Source: Holophagaceae bacterium (lineage in GTDB: Bacteria; Acidobacteriota; Holophagae; Holophagales; Holophagaceae). From it: a DNA stretch of 64,000 bases. Where the stretch lies: contig JBDIBF010000002.1 in NCBI GenBank assembly GCA_039812765.1, positions 1,682 through 65,681 of the forward strand, read 5' to 3'. The translations under genes were made by a program, and so were the position numbers. The first letter of the stretch is position 1. The number at the start of each line of letters is the position of its first letter. The notes under the pieces were generated by a model. It saw only the letters and a list, made by a program, of their open reading frames with translations, did not search any database and was not told the origin of the DNA. Shown here in pieces: positions 7,076 to 36,668 of this stretch.

Positions 7076-7822
7076 ATGCGCACCCACCCCCTTCAGCGCC
7101 CGGTCCGGACCGGGCTCGCCTGCCTTCTCTGCGCGGCAGGGCCGGCCCTGGCCGGCTGGTCCCCGAAGGTCCACGAGGCCCAGTCCCGCCTCGCGCTCCG
7201 GATGGTGCCCCCCCGGCTCCACGAGCTCCTCAAGCCCCACCAGGCCGCCTTGCTCGCCACCGCCCGCGGCCAGGCCAACGACAATCCCCCCACGGTGGAC
7301 GAGGTGGAGGACCAGTTCCGGCGCATCGTGGCCCTCAGCGAAGCCAAGGCCTCCCTGGATCGCCTCGCCGCCGAGCTCGGCGTCCTGGCCCACCAGGTCC
7401 AGCTCCTGTCCGATCCTTCGGCCACCCAAGGCGTCACCGCCCTGCGCGAGGTCTTCGAGGCCTACACCGACGGGCGGTTCAGGGACCTCGTGCTCACCCG
7501 GGAGCCCTTCTGGGCGGCCCGGGCGCCGCTGGACCCGCACCCGCCCCTCCTGCAGCTGGCCCGGACGAAGTTCGAGCGCCACGCGCACCTGGCCGAGCAT
7601 TTCGACGCCTCCACGGGCCGGTCCATCGGCCCCTGGGATGAACTGAGCGTGCCCTACGCCCAGATGCAGCTGGCTTTTTCCAGCGGGGTGAACGCCACGG
7701 CCAACCTCTGGACCCTGCTGTGGCGGGCGGTCGGCGACCTGTGGCTGGATCCCCGTTCCCGCGACCAGCGGAACCTTTCGGCCCCGGATCCGGTCCAACC
7801 GGCACAGGATCCCGGCCCCTAG
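7076..7822 (+). CDS. secreted hypothetical protein (possible PLC/P1-nuclease-superfamily zinc enzyme)
   Basis: Signal peptide MRTHPLQRPVRTGLACLLCAAGPALAG, then W-x4-H (WSPKVH), reminiscent of the mature N-terminus of S1/P1 nucleases. The functional guess is weak. GTG 7037 is an alternative start. Confidence 0.5.
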   Translation: MRTHPLQRPVRTGLACLLCAAGPALAGWSPKVHEAQSRLALRMVPPRLHELLKPHQAALLATARGQANDNPPTVDEVEDQFRRIVALSEAKASLDRLAAELGVLAHQVQLLSDPSATQGVTALREVFEAYTDGRFRDLVLTREPFWAARAPLDPHPPLLQLARTKFERHAHLAEHFDASTGRSIGPWDELSVPYAQMQLAFSSGVNATANLWTLLWRAVGDLWLDPRSRDQRNLSAPDPVQPAQDPGP

Positions 7823-33733: not shown

Positions 33734-34807
33734 ATGCACCCGCTCGTCGAACGCTTCCTCCAGAACCAGCTTCCGGAGCCGATGGTCGCCGCCCTGCTGG
33801 GCGGCGGGCTGCCGGTGCCGCCCCTCGACCTCGTCCAGGCCCAGGCCCACGCCTGGCTCACGGATTCGCCCCACAAGGACAAGGCCCTGGACGGATTCCT
33901 CTCCCTCCCGGAGAGCGTGGTGGACGGCATCCTCGAACACGAGATCGCCCCGCCGGGGCCCCTTGGCCTGATCCTCCGCTACCGCACCGAGCACGCCCTG
34001 CTTGAGCGGGCGCTGCTCCACGGGGACCTCACCGCCGAGGTCCTGGAGCCCTGCATCGCCTCGCTCCCGGGGGACCTCCTCGAGATCCCGTTGAACAACC
34101 AGGTGCTGTGGATGCAGCGCCCCCGCATCCTCGACGAGCTCGAGCTGCACCCGGCCGCCTCCTACAACCTCAAGCGGAAGGTCAACGAGTTCCGCTTCGA
34201 CGTGCTGAAGATCGGCAACGAGGAGGTCGTCAAGGAGCGGCTCGAGATCCTCGACGAGGTGGAGGGCGGCCGGCTGGACGCGGCCTGGGCCGAGCTGCCC
34301 ATGCCCGAGGCCGGCGCCGACGACGAATCCGAGGAAGTGCTCCGGGAGCGCTACACCAAGCCCCTCCAGGACTTCGACGGGCAGGACATCAGCCTGACGC
34401 TCACCCAGCGCGTGATGCGCCTGCGCACGAACCAGAAGATCATGCTGGCCCAGAAGGGCGGCAAGGAGGAGCGCACCATCCTCATCCGGGAGGCCAACCG
34501 GCTCATCCAGGTCGGCGTCATCCGCAACGCCCGCATCACCGACGGCGAGGTCGCCTACATCGCCCAGATGCGCAGCATCAACGAAGAAGTGCTCCGGATC
34601 ATCACCCTGAACCGGGAATGGATGAAGAAGTACGCCATCGTGAAGGCCCTCGTGCTCAACCCGAGGACACCCCTCCCCCTCGCGATGCAGCACTACCGGC
34701 GTCTCCACGAGTCCGACCTCAAGCTCATGCAGCGCGACAAGAACATCGCCGAGATGCTCAGGCGCGAGGCGAAGAAGTGGCTGGAGACGATGGGGCAGAA
34801 GAAGTAG
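33734..34807 (+). CDS. conserved hypothetical helical-repeat protein
   Basis: 357 aa. The C-terminal half has repeated helical units (RNARITDGEVAYIAQMRSINEEVLRIITLNREWMKKYAIVKALVLNPRTPL) that I recall from uncharacterised proteins of Deltaproteobacteria and spirochaetes. Confidence 0.7.
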   Translation: MHPLVERFLQNQLPEPMVAALLGGGLPVPPLDLVQAQAHAWLTDSPHKDKALDGFLSLPESVVDGILEHEIAPPGPLGLILRYRTEHALLERALLHGDLTAEVLEPCIASLPGDLLEIPLNNQVLWMQRPRILDELELHPAASYNLKRKVNEFRFDVLKIGNEEVVKERLEILDEVEGGRLDAAWAELPMPEAGADDESEEVLRERYTKPLQDFDGQDISLTLTQRVMRLRTNQKIMLAQKGGKEERTILIREANRLIQVGVIRNARITDGEVAYIAQMRSINEEVLRIITLNREWMKKYAIVKALVLNPRTPLPLAMQHYRRLHESDLKLMQRDKNIAEMLRREAKKWLETMGQKK

Positions 34808-34832
34808 GCGCATCCTGCGCCTGACACCGGCC

Positions 34833-35545
34833 CGCCTGCGGACGCTTGCGCGTCCTGCGGCTGGCCCTACCGGCGCGCCGGCGCGGTTCGACCCCGCCCG
34901 CCCCCTCCAGAACGCTCGAAGCCCCCTTCCGGGGGCCTCTCAGTGGAGCGGGCGATCGGGATCCCCTCCGCGCTGCGCGCTGCGGGCCGCCGCCCGGCTG
35001 CGCCCGGGCCTCCGGCTCCGCCGGACCGCCTGCGGACGCTTGCGCGTCCTGCGGCTGGCCCTACCGGCGCGCCGGGGCGGTTCGATCCCGCACGCCCTCT
35101 CCAGAACGCTCGAAGCCCCCTTCCGGGGGCCTCTCACTGGAGCGGGCGATCGGGATCCCCTCCGCGCTGCGCGCTGCGGGCCGCCGCCCGGCTGCGCCCG
35201 GGCCTCCGGCTCCGCCGGACCGCCTGCGGACGCTCGCGCGTCCTGCGTCTGGCCCTACCGGCGCGCCGGCGCGGTTCGATCCCGCACGCCCCCTCCAGAA
35301 CGCTCGAAGCCCCCTTCCGGGGGCCTCTCACTGGAGCGGGCGATCGGGATCCCCTCCGCGCTGCGCGCTGCGGGCCGCCGCCCGGCTGCGCCCGGGCCTC
35401 CGGCTCCGCCGGACCGCCTGCGGACGCTCGCGCGTCCTACGTCTGGCCCTACCGGCGCGCCGGGGCGGTTCGATCCCGCACGCCCCCTCCAGAACGCTCG
35501 AAGCCCCCTTCCGGGGGCCTCTCACTGGAGCGGGCGATCGGGATC
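34833..35545. repeat. 194-bp tandem repeat, 3.7 copies, abutting and overlapping the 3' end of tRNA-Gly
   Basis: Units start at 34833, 35027, 35221 and 35415. Copies are more than 94% identical. Each contains TGGAGCGGGCGATCGGGATC (the tRNA 3' end on the minus strand) at 34944, 35138, 35332 and 35526. Confidence 0.95.
35503..35518 (-). terminator. hairpin GCCCCC-GGAA-GGGGGC immediately 3' of tRNA-Gly (repeated in every 194-bp unit)
   Basis: 6-bp GC stem 8 nt after the tRNA CCA end, followed by UUCGAGCGUUC on the minus strand. Confidence 0.55.
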
Positions 35546-35600
35546 GAACCGACGACGTTCAGCTTGGGAAGCTGACATTCTGCCACTGAATTACGCCCGC
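35526..35600 (-). tRNA. tRNA-Gly (anticodon CCC), CCA encoded
   Basis: Reverse complement GCGGGCG-TA-ATTCAGTGGCAGAAT-G-TCAGC-TTCCCAA-GCTGA-ACGTC-GTCGG-TTCGATC-CCGAT-CGCCCGC-T-CCA folds as a 75-nt cloverleaf, with U73 typical of glycine. Confidence 0.93.
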
Positions 35601-35615
35601 AGAACGAGCCTCATC

Positions 35616-36668
35616 CTACTTCGCCGCGCCGGGGCTGGCAAGGGCGGCGAGGCGTTCGAGGACGAAGGCCACCAGGGGCTCGGCGCCGACGACGTCCTGC
35701 TCGGCGATCCAGAGGGGCATCTGCAGAAGGCCGGCGGCGGAAGGGTCGAGCTTGACGGCGTCCTTCTCGGTGCACACCAGGGCCCGGGCGCCGGCGCGCG
35801 CGGCCTGCAGCTGCGCGAGCATGAGGCGGCGGGGCGTGAGCGCGGCGTGGTCCGGGAAGGCCAGGGTGTCCACCCAGGGCAGGCCGGCCACCAGGAGGTC
35901 GGCGAAGAAGGCCTCGGGATGCCCGAGCCCGCAGAAGGCGAAGAGCGGCTCGAAGCCCGGGGCGGGAAGGGGCAGGCGCAGCTCCCCGTTCCAGAGCCTC
36001 AGGGCGCCGATGCGGAAGTCCACGTAGAAGACCGGGCCTCCGGAGCCGTGCTTCGCCCACCAGGCCTCCACCTCGTCCCTCGGCGCGCGGCCTCCCCGCG
36101 TCACCACCAGCGCGTGGGCCCGGCGGGCCCCTTCCATGGGCTCCCGGAGGTCCCCCCGGGGCAGCATGCGCCCGTCCCCCCAGCGCCGCACGCCGTCCAG
36201 GAGCAGCAGGTCCAGGTCCCGGTGAAGGCCCCGATGCTGGAATCCGTCGTCCAGCAGCAGCACGCCGGGGCGCGGCTCCAGGCGCAGGGCCCGCTGGGCG
36301 CCCACGGCCCGGCGCCGGGCCACCACCACGCGGCCGGGCCCGAGGCGGCGGGCCATCAGCGCGGGCTCGTCCCCCGCCTCCCGCGGTGAAGAGGCCGGAA
36401 GGACCTCCATGGGATCCAGCTTCCGCCGCCCTCCGTAGCCCCGGCTCACGACGGCGCTGGGCCATCCGGCGGACTGGAGGGCCTGGGCGAGGTGGAGGGC
36501 CAGGGGCGTCTTCCCCGTCCCCCCGGTGCTCAGGTTGCCGAGGGAGACCACGGGGACCTCCACCCGCGCCGAACGCTCGGGATGCTGGTCGAAGGCCCGG
36601 TTGCGGGCCTTCACCACCGCCGCGTAGAGGGGCCCCAGGGGCGCGGCGAGGGTGCGGAGGAGGGACAT
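35616..36668 (-). CDS. lpxK: tetraacyldisaccharide 4'-kinase
   Basis: VPVVSLGNLSTGGTGKTP P-loop and LpxK-like length (350 aa). Confidence 0.9.
   Translation of the reverse strand: MSLLRTLAAPLGPLYAAVVKARNRAFDQHPERSARVEVPVVSLGNLSTGGTGKTPLALHLAQALQSAGWPSAVVSRGYGGRRKLDPMEVLPASSPREAGDEPALMARRLGPGRVVVARRRAVGAQRALRLEPRPGVLLLDDGFQHRGLHRDLDLLLLDGVRRWGDGRMLPRGDLREPMEGARRAHALVVTRGGRAPRDEVEAWWAKHGSGGPVFYVDFRIGALRLWNGELRLPLPAPGFEPLFAFCGLGHPEAFFADLLVAGLPWVDTLAFPDHAALTPRRLMLAQLQAARAGARALVCTEKDAVKLDPSAAGLLQMPLWIAEQDVVGAEPLVAFVLERLAALASPGAAK

What the first reader, a model, noticed from the sequence alone, without database searches (positions are those of the whole stretch)
34833..35600. tRNA-Gly(CCC) followed by a 194-bp x 3.7 tandem array in which every unit repeats the tRNA's last 20 nt, its terminator hairpin and an inverted second tRNA-like 3' end
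Units start at 34833, 35027, 35221 and 35415. Each contains an exact copy of the tRNA segment from the T-loop to CCA (GATCCCGATCGCCCGCTCCA on the minus strand). The copies lie at 34944, 35138 and 35332, and the genuine one at 35526. Similarity to the tRNA breaks precisely inside the T-loop. Each unit also carries the GCCCCC-GGAA-GGGGGC hairpin. Converging on that hairpin from the plus strand is GGCGGTTCGATCCCGCACGCCCYCTCCA, which looks like a T-arm, a 7-nt acceptor strand, a U73 glycine-type discriminator and CCA. This second remnant has no complementary 5' half. The few differences between copies cluster in this second remnant and in a small GGACGC-N4-GCGTCC hairpin. Direct repeats of a T-loop-to-CCA tRNA segment are the classical footprint of tyrosine-integrase att sites. 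Here, however, the inserts are only 174 bp, they are tandem, and no integrase lies in the window. This fits tandem accretion of a minimal cis-mobilisable att cassette, or a satellite seeded by a tRNA 3' end. I do not recognise it as a described element.
Basis: partly seen in the sequence, partly recalled or inferred. Interest (0 to 1): 0.72.

Follow-up and report, generated by a model that had tools for sequence, protein, structure and literature searches.

The report
tRNA-linked repeat array in an acidobacterium
Downstream of a glycine tRNA gene, a folded ~190-base element that ends in a copy of the tRNA's own tail has been copied 3.7 times in a row; it has the same layout as the unexplained 'tRNA-linked repeats' of E. 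coli but lies in a distant phylum, so it offers a second, independent case for studying them.

Summary
A 194-bp x 3.7 array (34827-35545) starts inside the T-loop of tRNA-Gly(CCC) (35526-35600, minus strand). Each unit carries the tRNA's last 20 nt, a GC hairpin and an inverted copy of the tRNA 3' end.

It is not an assembly artefact. Homologous arrays of 2.5 and 2.3 units occur in two related Holophagaceae genomes. A single-copy version of the same module follows tRNA-Gly(CCC) in many Geothrix-like genomes and metagenome contigs, always on the tRNA's strand.

The module has a conserved fold. The inverted copy pairs with the 20-nt cap, enclosing branched hairpins, with 18-21 compensatory pairs. 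It evolves more slowly than third codon positions.

Copy number changes within a species, and units are homogenised within genomes.

The integrase/att reading is not supported. No integrase is nearby. Prophages at this tRNA use a ~45-nt core that starts in the anticodon arm.

The architecture matches E. coli tRNA-linked repeats (TLRs; the tyrT 178 bp x 3.1 array, Rfam RtT). There is no detectable sequence homology to RtT.

Best reading: a TLR-type tRNA trailer amplified by unequal recombination. RNA-level function, transcription and strand remain inferred.

The parts
35526..35600 (-). tRNA-Gly(CCC) gene. Its last 20 nt (35526-35545) are the first 20 nt of the array.
   Evidence: ARAGORN; Rfam RF00005, 63.5 bits
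35613..35641 (-). Promoter-like site TTGCCA-17-TAGGAT just upstream of the tRNA. It is the only sigma-70-like match in 34700-35750.
   Evidence: consensus match only; function inferred
34827..35545 (-). Tandem array of 194 bp x 3.7. In the tRNA's direction the units are 35545-35352, 35351-35158, 35157-34964 and a partial unit 34963-34827 (137 nt).
   Evidence: Full units are 98-99% identical; the distal partial unit is 94% identical.
35332..35351 (-). Copy of the tRNA's last 20 nt (the 'cap', GATCCCGATCGCCCGCTCCA). Identical copies lie at 35138-35157 and 34944-34963.
35503..35518 (.). GC hairpin GCCCCC-TTCC-GGGGGC directly after each cap. Further copies at 35309-35324, 35115-35130 and 34921-34936. 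No T-run follows it in the window.
35466..35492 (+). Inverted copy of the tRNA 3' end (24/27 complementary). Further copies at 35272-35298, 35078-35104 and 34884-34910. It can pair with the upstream cap (an 86-nt palindrome, -71 kcal/mol, z = -8.6) or with the downstream cap (helix P1, which closes the module).
35352..35465 (-). Interior of the module: branched hairpins that include GGACGC-N4-GCGTCC (35422-35437) and a short GC hairpin next to the cap junction GGAGGG|GATCC. The same interior is repeated at 35158-35271 and 34964-35077.
   Evidence: The folded module has z = -3.8 against shuffles. The consensus structure has 21 compensatory pairs in the window clade.
34806..34822 (-). Hairpin AGGCGCA-GGA-TGCGCCT followed by a T-rich tail, just beyond the distal end of the array and over the stop codon of the convergent 357-aa gene. 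It is a candidate terminator for a tRNA-plus-array transcript.
   Evidence: pattern match only

Best explanation
This is a tRNA-linked-repeat (TLR) type trailer.

The basic element is a structured module of about 160 nt that follows tRNA-Gly(CCC) on the same strand in Holophagaceae. It starts with an inverted copy of the tRNA's T-loop-to-acceptor segment. It ends with a direct copy of the tRNA's last 20 nt (the 'cap'). The two pair to close a branched hairpin structure.

In the window's clade the module, together with the hairpin that follows the tRNA, has been amplified head to tail to 3.7 units. The mechanism is unequal homologous recombination or replication slippage between the long direct repeats. 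The same process keeps the units of one genome nearly identical.

Inferred, not shown: the array is transcribed from the tRNA promoter by read-through of the weak hairpins. The tRNA-like caps and long helices then serve as processing sites that release the modules as small RNAs, as shown for three E. coli TLRs located after 5S rRNA.

The 20-nt tRNA segment is therefore an integral part of the module's fold. It is not an integrase crossover core.
For: Shown:
1. Homologous arrays occur at the same locus in related genomes: L006, 192 bp x 2.5; L053, 206 bp x 2.3. L007's contig ends inside similar sequence.
2. Single or 1.5-unit versions of the module follow tRNA-Gly(CCC) in at least 15 further Geothrix/Holophagaceae loci and in 8 of 8 metagenome contigs. 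They are always on the tRNA's strand, whichever way the tRNA faces its neighbours.
3. The fold is conserved. 11 Geothrix-type modules give 53 pairs, 94% paired, 18 with compensatory change. 7 window-clade modules give 57 pairs, 21 compensatory. In both sets 0 of 500 shuffles reach the observed value on any measure, and slid controls are 36-46% paired.
4. Module pairwise identity is 0.78, against 0.65 for third codon positions of the neighbouring gene.
5. The cap and the inverted copy follow each lineage's own tRNA allele. All four L053-specific changes are mirrored, as are the CCTGG and CCCGA alleles.
6. Copy-number turnover is seen. L091 and L025 have 99.1-99.9% identical flanks and differ by exactly one ~200-bp unit bounded by 107-bp direct repeats. 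Units are 98-100% identical within a genome but 85% between window and L006, whose flanks are 90-91% identical.
7. The layout matches E. coli tyrT/tyrV. That locus has a 178 bp x 3.1 array starting 19 nt inside the tRNA, and the RtT consensus is closed by a helix between an inverted copy and the tRNA-3' copy.
8. The TLR literature gives the class definition, and the read-through and processing of rrA/B/F (PMC8144298).
9. The only promoter-like site is upstream of the tRNA, and the window's unit hairpins lack T-runs.
Against: - There is no transcript evidence.
- The G-U versus A-C asymmetry that would identify the transcribed strand is weak: 31 vs 12 cells in one alignment and 10 vs 9 in the other. 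The conserved fold could therefore belong to the opposite strand or to single-stranded DNA.
- In L053 and the Geothrix-type loci the hairpin after CCA looks like a good bidirectional terminator. That would limit read-through into the module.
- In L029, L090 and L093 the sequences after the two caps differ, as at attL/attR junctions.
- In L038 a 1.55-kb insert sits at a cap copy. Some site-specific events at the cap cannot be excluded.
- The Geothrix-based covariance model does not score the window's own units. Homology is only transitive, through L053 (E = 4e-5), L080 (E = 3e-9) and 75-80% blastn identity.
Confidence: 0.6

Rival explanations
1. Minimal att cassette. Each unit is a non-autonomous integrative element whose attP core is the T-loop-to-CCA segment. 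It is inserted repeatedly (accretion) by a tyrosine integrase encoded elsewhere.
For: - The break lies inside the T-loop, and every insert is bounded by 20-nt direct repeats.
- In L029, L090 and L093 the flanks after the two cores differ, as at attL/attR.
- In L038 a 1.55-kb lower-GC insert is bounded by cap-like copies, each preceded by GGAGR.
- L091 and L025 show a one-unit presence/absence polymorphism.
Against: - No integrase homologue is detectable in the window (best E = 0.16) or in 53 related loci.
- The unit motifs are absent from IMG/VR. One scan gave zero hits and the other gave 8 matches in unrelated sequence contexts that do not resemble the module.
- Verified prophage integrases at this tRNA use cores that start in the anticodon arm.
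- The module stays at this one tRNA locus wherever it was found and is under purifying selection with compensatory changes.
- In the window the repeat is the whole 194 bp.
- E. coli TLRs show the same 18-19-bp identity downstream of 5S rRNA genes, which have no T-loop (PMC8144298).
Confidence: 0.12
2. DNA-level quasi-palindromic satellite or terminator stack. The hairpin after the tRNA seeded an inverted copy of the tRNA end by template switching. The alternating direct and inverted copies then expand and contract by slippage. Any role is only as a bidirectional terminator or insulator between the convergent 357-aa gene and the tRNA/lpxK unit, with no RNA product of its own.
For: - Cap, hairpin and inverted copy form an 86-nt near-perfect palindrome (-71 kcal/mol, z = -8.6).
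- The inverted copy tracks the tRNA allele, as expected from palindrome correction.
- G-U/A-C asymmetry is weak.
- The array lies between convergent genes.
- Hairpins with T-runs on both sides occur in relatives.
- Copy number is unstable.
Against: - A neutral satellite would not keep a ~115-nt interior alignable across genomes whose third codon positions are only 65% identical.
- It would also not accumulate 18-21 compensatory pairs outside the palindrome.
- The lower stem of the long hairpin barely varies across Geothrix-type modules: 9 of its 16 pairs never vary.
Confidence: 0.2
3. Plus-strand tRNA-like genes. Each unit read on the plus strand would encode an RNA whose 5' end (GCGGGCG, within the complement of the cap) and 3' end (T-arm-like CGCGG-TTCGATC-CCGCA, CGCCCCC, U, CCA) form a tRNA-like acceptor/T domain around a replaced body. 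Alternatively, the plus-strand copy is the relic of a once convergent tRNA-Gly gene.
For: - The plus-strand 3' end has a T-loop, a 7-nt acceptor strand, U73 and CCA, followed by a hairpin.
- Relatives carry the intact tRNA in the plus orientation at about the same distance from the 357-aa gene.
- The fold is nearly strand-symmetric.
Against: - ARAGORN and Rfam find no tRNA or tmRNA on the plus strand. The best hit is tRNA-Sec at 15.3 bits, E = 6.9.
- In Geothrix-type modules the inverted copy keeps only TGGAG...GGGGATTGAA, with no T-stem or acceptor strand. A tRNA-like plus-strand fold is therefore not conserved.
- No promoter-like site lies on the plus strand in the array.
Confidence: 0.05
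4. Assembly artefact. A single unit was inflated to several copies by mis-assembly.
For: Short-read contigs from four metagenomes all break within or next to the array. The exact copy number of 3.7 is not independently verified.
Against: - An independent JGI contig (L001) crosses the cap-to-interior junction with 100% identity.
- Two other genomes, with contigs of 3.48 Mb and 130 kb, carry homologous multi-copy arrays.
- The window's units differ at 9 positions, which collapsed or duplicated reads would not produce.
Confidence: 0.03

Closest known systems
E. coli tRNA-linked repeats (TLRs), prototype tyrT/tyrV distal repeats = RtT/rttR (Rfam RF00391). Sources: Egan & Landy 1978; Rudd 1999; Bosl & Kersten 1991, as cited in PMC8144298, PMC2965389 and PMC7542023.
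   Same: - Both lie immediately downstream of a tRNA gene on the same strand.
- Each unit ends with a copy of the tRNA's last 19 nt (E. coli) or 20 nt (here), including CCA. Identity starts inside the T-loop, at position 58 versus 57.
- Both form tandem arrays of similar size: 178 bp x 3.1 versus 194 bp x 3.7.
- In both, an internal inverted copy of the T-stem/acceptor segment pairs with the cap to close the structure.
- Both have 1-5 copies per locus.
(PMC8144298)
   Different: - There is no detectable homology. RF00391 gives no hit at E <= 10 in the window array or in five Geothrix-type loci.
- The tRNA differs (Gly-CCC versus Tyr), and so does the phylum.
- Each unit here also carries a GC hairpin directly after the cap.
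- In the window clade the inverted copy extends over all 27 nt to CCA.
- No tpr-like ORF was looked for.
- Only one locus per genome has been seen so far, whereas E. coli has ten loci.
rrA/rrB/rrF: TLRs between the dual terminators T1/T2 after 5S rRNA (PMC8144298)
   Same: Both sit between a first hairpin terminator that follows the stable-RNA gene and a second one after the cap copy (L029, L090, L093). In E. coli these TLRs are transcribed by read-through of T1 and then processed. That is the mechanism proposed here.
   Different: - Those are linked to 5S rRNA and bind Hfq and CsrA through GGA motifs. Nothing comparable was tested here.
- Expression of the Holophagaceae module is not shown.
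tRNA-gene att duplications left by tyrosine integrases, and cis-mobilisable elements / accretion (CIME)
   Same: There are direct repeats of a tRNA 3' segment ending at CCA, and tandem arrangement is possible.
   Different: - There is no integrase.
- The core is different from that of real prophages at this tRNA.
- The insert is a conserved structured module, not foreign cargo.
3'ETS-leuZ and other functional tRNA trailers (Lalaouna et al. 2015, as cited in PMC8144298)
   Same: It is a non-coding segment downstream of a tRNA in the same transcript that acts as an RNA in its own right.
   Different: 3'ETS-leuZ is a short single-copy spacer with no tRNA-end copy and no tandem repetition.
REP/BIME/REPIN hairpin repeats
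   Same: Both are long imperfect hairpins with compensatory changes, often placed at the ends of convergent genes. Some enterobacterial rtT-like sequences were assigned to BIMEs (PMC2965389).
   Different: REP elements are dispersed in many copies. This module was found only next to tRNA-Gly(CCC), across about 0.8 Mb of related loci and in all 8 metagenome hits.

Membership tests
tRNA-linked repeats (TLR) | Lies immediately downstream of a tRNA or rRNA gene, on the same strand | tested here: met
   The array abuts and overlaps the 3' end of tRNA-Gly(CCC). In relatives the module always follows the tRNA on its strand.
tRNA-linked repeats (TLR) | The last 18-19 bp of each repeat are identical to the 3' end of the upstream stable-RNA gene | tested here: met
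   There are three exact 20-nt copies plus the genuine end. The same holds in L006, L053, L011, L035, L090, L091 and L093.
tRNA-linked repeats (TLR) | One to five copies per locus, in tandem | tested here: met
   3.7 units in the window, 2.5 in L006, 2.3 in L053, and 1-1.55 in Geothrix-type loci
tRNA-linked repeats (TLR) | Closing helix between an internal inverted copy of the tRNA T-stem/acceptor segment and the 3' cap (RF00391 consensus) | tested here: met
   RF00391 consensus seen on the E. coli locus. Helix P1 is present in both Holophagaceae alignments with compensatory changes.
tRNA-linked repeats (TLR) | Sequence/structure homology to the enterobacterial RtT family (RF00391) | tested here: not met
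   No RtT match at gathering score or at E <= 10. The same model scores 133-138 bits on the four E. coli units.
tRNA-linked repeats (TLR) | Co-transcribed with the stable RNA and processed to a discrete RNA | not testable with these tools
   Only indirect evidence: a single promoter-like site upstream of the tRNA, and no T-run after the unit hairpins in the window.
Integrase att site / integrative element at a tRNA gene | Direct repeats of the tRNA 3' segment bound the insert | tested here: met
Integrase att site / integrative element at a tRNA gene | An integrase gene lies in or next to the insert | tested here: not met
   The units are 174 bp of non-coding sequence. The neighbours are a 357-aa protein and LpxK. 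tblastn with four integrase-type ORFs from next to prophage att sites (Pfam PF00589 at 60.9, 24.5 and 17.3 bits; the fourth had no Pfam hit) gives best E = 0.16 in the window and no hit in 53 loci. This test has limited sensitivity.
Integrase att site / integrative element at a tRNA gene | Identity between the junctions is confined to a short core, with different flanks | tested here: not met
   In the window the whole 194-bp unit is repeated at 97-99% identity. The feature is met only in some relatives: L029, L090 and L093.
Integrase att site / integrative element at a tRNA gene | The core coincides with that used by elements known to integrate in this tRNA | tested here: not met
   Ten IMG/VR contigs and L036 show cores from the anticodon arm to CCA, about 45-49 nt. 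Two of them have Pfam integrase hits beside the site, one above the curated cutoff (L075, 60.9 bits) and one just below it (L071, 24.5 bits, with an Arm-DNA-binding domain above cutoff).
Integrase att site / integrative element at a tRNA gene | The insert is foreign DNA: patchy distribution, no selection on its sequence | tested here: not met
   The module is conserved across the family, with covariation and slower change than third codon positions.
Dispersed hairpin repeats (REP/REPIN/MITE) | Many copies at unrelated intergenic sites | tested here: not met
   There is no other copy in the 64-kb window or elsewhere in about 0.8 Mb of loci. All 8 metagenome hits lie next to tRNA-Gly(CCC). Whole genomes were not scanned.
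tRNA gene or pseudogene on the plus strand | Cloverleaf detectable by ARAGORN or the Rfam tRNA model | tested here: not met
   The best plus-strand hit is tRNA-Sec at 15.3 bits, E = 6.9.
Intrinsic terminator (unit hairpin) | GC-rich stem followed by a T-run | tested here: not met
   The consensus scan does not report the window's unit hairpins. By eye, T-runs are present in L053 and in Geothrix-type loci.

The most novel reading that the evidence does not exclude
TLR-type trailers may be a general class of stable-RNA appendage that has arisen more than once. In this reading each is a structured RNA whose 3' cap copies the tRNA's end and whose 5' 'anti-cap' is antisense to it, and both co-evolve with the tRNA. 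The module, here in four copies, would then act on the tRNA's own maturation or availability. It could compete for or recruit the enzymes that recognise the acceptor/T domain. It could form RNase III-type processing stems. It could also pair in trans with the 3' half of tRNA-Gly(CCC) through 24-27 nt of complementarity. A less likely alternative is that the cap is the core of a still unknown T-loop-specific recombination system that moves 200-bp hairpin cassettes.
Probability: 0.25. Interest if true: 0.75.

Novelty: new variant of a known kind. Interest (0 to 1): 0.58.

Why it matters
E. coli TLRs have been known since 1978. Nineteen of the 22 still have no assigned function or explanation of origin (PMC8144298). 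They have been treated as an enterobacterial curiosity.

This locus shows the same architecture in Acidobacteria with no detectable sequence homology, which gives the first comparative handle on the class:
- The cap and its inverted partner follow three different tRNA T-stem alleles.
- The interior is under purifying selection with compensatory changes.
- Copy number changes within a species.

These observations make two old questions testable. One is whether the tRNA-end copy is a structural or processing element or a recombination scar. The other is whether TLRs make functional RNAs. The tests can be run in cultured carriers such as Geothrix fermentans and G. terrae.

It is also a caution for genome annotation. 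Direct repeats of a tRNA 3' end are not always integrase footprints.

Tried and rejected
- Rfam at gathering and permissive thresholds. It returned only the tRNA, plus hairpin-type miRNA false positives on the terminator palindrome. There was no RtT, tmRNA or other family.
- Covariance model R1, built from Geothrix-type modules. It finds L080, L053 and L045 and all metagenome modules, but it does not align the window's own units. The weak hits there are generic hairpin matches to the cap-hairpin-inverted-copy palindrome. Homology to the window therefore rests on blastn to L053/L006 and on the intermediate L080.
- IMG/VR scans with unit motifs. One gave 8 matches in unrelated contexts that do not resemble the module; the other gave none.
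- G-U versus A-C asymmetry, to call the transcribed strand. It was inconclusive.
- Sigma-70 scans for a promoter inside the units or in the Geothrix modules. None was found.
- Pfam on the three ORFs of the L038 insert. No hits.
- Reading the plus-strand copy as a second, different tRNA. Rejected, because it is an inverted copy of the same tRNA end.
- Decayed-tRNA origin of the interior. I saw no similarity between the interior and the tRNA's 5' 55 nt. This was an inspection, not a formal test.
- Bosl & Kersten 1991 could not be read. It is cited only through papers that cite it.
No whole-genome dispersal test of the unit was therefore possible.
Full report
**1. The observation**

- Tandem Repeats Finder reports a single large array in the window: 34827-35545, period 194, 3.7 copies, 97% matches, no indels.
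- ARAGORN and the Rfam tRNA model find one tRNA-Gly(CCC) on the minus strand at 35526-35600.
- The array's right edge is 20 nt inside the tRNA. Identity with the tRNA stops after TTC of the T-loop.
- Exact copies of the last 20 nt lie at 34944, 35138 and 35332.
- Nine positions vary among the copies. All lie in the part of the unit that holds the inverted copy and the first hairpins.

One correction: the plus-strand 'second remnant' is an inverted copy of the same tRNA-Gly 3' end. It is 24 of 27 nt complementary and lies 32 nt away, across the hairpin.

**2. Not an artefact**

- Five public short-read contigs are 100% identical to the flanks.
- One of them (L001) reads through the junction between the 20-nt copy and the non-tRNA sequence, as far as 34994.
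- Another (L003) ends exactly at 34963, which is consistent with an assembly branch point at the cap copy.
- Multi-copy arrays also occur in two other genomes (section 3).
- The copy number of 3.7 itself has not been independently verified.

**3. Relatives**

The neighbouring 357-aa protein places the window in Holophagaceae (Acidobacteriota). The search returned 53 related loci.

Window clade:
- L006 (97% aa identity; flanks 90-91% nt) has a 192-bp x 2.5 array.
- L053 (80% aa identity) has a 206-bp x 2.3 array.
- L007's contig ends inside similar sequence.

The L053 tRNA has a different T-stem and acceptor sequence (GAGTCCCATCGTCCGCTCCA). Both its direct copies and its inverted copies follow that sequence.

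More distant Geothrix-like genomes carry one module (or 1.5) after the tRNA. Its order is:
- CCA;
- a terminator-like hairpin;
- TGGAG-N12-GGGGATTGAA, an inverted partial copy of the tRNA end;
- a long imperfect hairpin;
- a short GC hairpin;
- GGAGG followed by a second copy of the tRNA's last 20 nt.

Further points on distribution:
- A covariance model built from 11 such modules finds them only next to tRNA-Gly(CCC), on its strand. It also scores L080 (E = 3e-9) and an L053 unit (E = 4e-5).
- A metagenome scan with a conserved 28-mer gave 8 contigs. Seven have tRNA-Gly(CCC) immediately upstream of the module. The eighth ends within the module.
- L080 has an intermediate sequence that links the window type and the Geothrix type.
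- The model does not score the window's own units. Homology to the window is therefore transitive.
- No other copy exists in the 64-kb window or elsewhere in the loci.

**4. Conserved fold**

RNAalifold gives the same plan in both groups. Helix P1 forms between the inverted copy and the cap. It encloses a long or branched P2 and a short P3.

| Alignment | Sequences | Pairs | Paired cells | Pairs with compensatory change | Shuffles reaching observed value | Slid controls, % paired |
|---|---|---|---|---|---|---|
| Geothrix type | 11 | 53 | 94% | 18 | 0 of 500 on all five measures | 36-44 |
| Window clade | 7 | 57 | 94% | 21 | 0 of 500 on all five measures | 36-46 |

- Mean pairwise identity of the module is 0.78. 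The adjacent gene is 0.80 overall and 0.65 at third codon positions.
- A window unit folds better than all 200 shuffles (z = -3.8). The alternative cap-hairpin-inverted-copy palindrome gives z = -8.6.
- The strand is not settled. G-U exceeds A-C by 31 to 12 cells in one alignment but only 10 to 9 in the other.

**5. Dynamics**

- Units are 98-100% identical within a genome. Between window and L006 they are 85% identical, and between window and L053 74-79%. This indicates concerted evolution.
- The arrays end at different phases: partial units of 137, 94 and 57 nt.
- L091 and L025 have 99.1-99.9% identical flanks. They differ by exactly one ~200-bp unit bounded by 107-bp direct repeats. Gain or loss of whole units therefore happens within a species.
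- These facts fit unequal homologous recombination or replication slippage. They do not require a site-specific enzyme.

**6. Test of the integrase reading**

Against it:
- The units have no coding capacity, and the neighbours are ordinary genes.
- Four integrase-type ORFs from beside prophage att sites were used as tblastn queries. Pfam PF00589 scored 60.9, 24.5 and 17.3 bits on three of them, and the fourth had no Pfam hit. They find nothing in the window (best E = 0.16) or in the 53 loci.
- In IMG/VR, partial tRNA-Gly(CCC) copies that mark prophage ends always begin in the anticodon arm, giving cores of ~45-49 nt. Two of these sites have Pfam integrase hits beside them: L075 above the curated cutoff, L071 just below it with an Arm-DNA-binding domain above cutoff.
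- L036 shows the same breakpoint in a genome.
- Unit motifs are absent from IMG/VR.

For it:
- In L029, L090 and L093 the two caps are followed by different hairpins.
- L038 has a 1.55-kb lower-GC insert bounded by cap-like copies.

I keep this rival at low probability.

**7. Closest known**

I re-analysed the E. coli K-12 tyrT-tyrV-rttR/tpr locus (L059).
- It has a 178-bp x 3.1 array beginning 19 nt inside tyrV. A further unit lies between tyrT and tyrV.
- Each unit ends AATCCTTCCCCCACCACCA. Each contains GGGGAAGGAT, the inverted copy that Rfam's RtT consensus pairs with the cap.

According to PMC8144298, these are 'tRNA-linked repeats':
- There are 22 in K-12, at ten loci, with one to five per locus.
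- They were first described by Egan & Landy in 1978.
- They have no known function, apart from three TLRs after 5S rRNA. Those lie between dual terminators, are transcribed by read-through, are processed, and bind Hfq and CsrA.

The window's array meets every architectural criterion of this class. It fails the homology criterion, because RF00391 gives no hit even at E <= 10. TLRs also follow 5S rRNA genes, which have no T-loop. That argues against a tRNA-specific integrase origin for the class.

**8. Mechanism**

Shown:
- the architecture;
- conservation of the fold;
- co-variation of the cap and the inverted copy with the tRNA allele;
- locus specificity;
- unit-wise copy-number change;
- homogenisation of units within a genome.

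Inferred:
- transcription from the tRNA promoter (the only promoter-like site, 35641-35613) through hairpins that lack T-runs in the window, ending near the hairpin at 34822-34806;
- processing at the tRNA-like caps or long helices;
- some RNA-level role.

The inverted copy may have arisen by template switching at the terminator hairpin. It may instead be a relic of a convergent tRNA copy. Neither was tested.

**9. Verdict**

This is a real feature: a TLR-type tRNA trailer array in a new phylum. It is a new variant of a known but unexplained kind. The att-cassette interpretation is not supported. Interest is moderate to good, because it gives an independent and experimentally accessible example of a 45-year-old puzzle.

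Noticed in passing
L015 7105-7278 versus L019 7105-7301 (also L009, L012, L018, L024, L031, L042, L045, L050 '+' versus L019, L023, L039, L052, L054 '-'): The whole ~175-200-bp intergenic cassette (promoter, tRNA-Gly(CCC), terminator hairpin, inverted stub) is flipped between related Geothrix genomes. The flanking genes stay collinear on both sides. No long inverted repeats were seen at the borders.
   Followed up: partly
L036 about 7290-7330; IMG/VR loci L071, L073, L075, L076, L077, L080, L083, L085, L095, L096: Integrated elements and prophages use tRNA-Gly(CCC) with att cores that run from the anticodon arm to CCA (~45-49 nt). Pfam integrase hits (PF00589) lie beside the site in L071 (24.5 bits, just below cutoff, plus an Arm-DNA-binding domain) and L075 (60.9 bits). 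L080 is a prophage junction directly next to a single host module.
   Followed up: partly
L038 3024-4575: A 1.55-kb lower-GC insert with three small ORFs (114, ~137-197 and 175 aa; no Pfam hits). It lies between a truncated second cap (AATCCCCAT) and a diverged third cap (AATCTCCATCGTCCACTCCA). Each junction is preceded by GGAGR.
   Followed up: partly
L045 about 7290-7400 and 7535-7645; L094; fragments in L011, L017, L043: A secondary insertion of about 100 nt (CTGACTCGG...GTCGGATGG) sits inside the long hairpin of the module, always after GGCAGG. It may be a small mobile or duplicated segment nested in the module.
   Followed up: no
L008 1-292: A 78-bp x 3.8 tandem repeat at the end of a Holophagaceae contig. 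It is unrelated in sequence to the 194-bp unit.
   Followed up: no
window 34806-34822: The hairpin AGGCGCA-GGA-TGCGCCT overlaps the stop codon of the 357-aa gene and has a T-rich tail on the minus strand. It is a possible shared terminator for the convergent transcription units.
   Followed up: no
window 33734-34807 (+) and its homologues in L006-L058: The 357-aa protein next to the array has no Pfam hit on record in the contig look-up. It is conserved with the same upstream gene order (AAA_3/MoxR-like, then HTH_25) in all Holophagaceae loci long enough to show those genes.
   Followed up: no
L010 7148-7149: A masked NN inside the tRNA gene hides it from ARAGORN. This locus therefore only appears to lack the tRNA.
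   Followed up: yes
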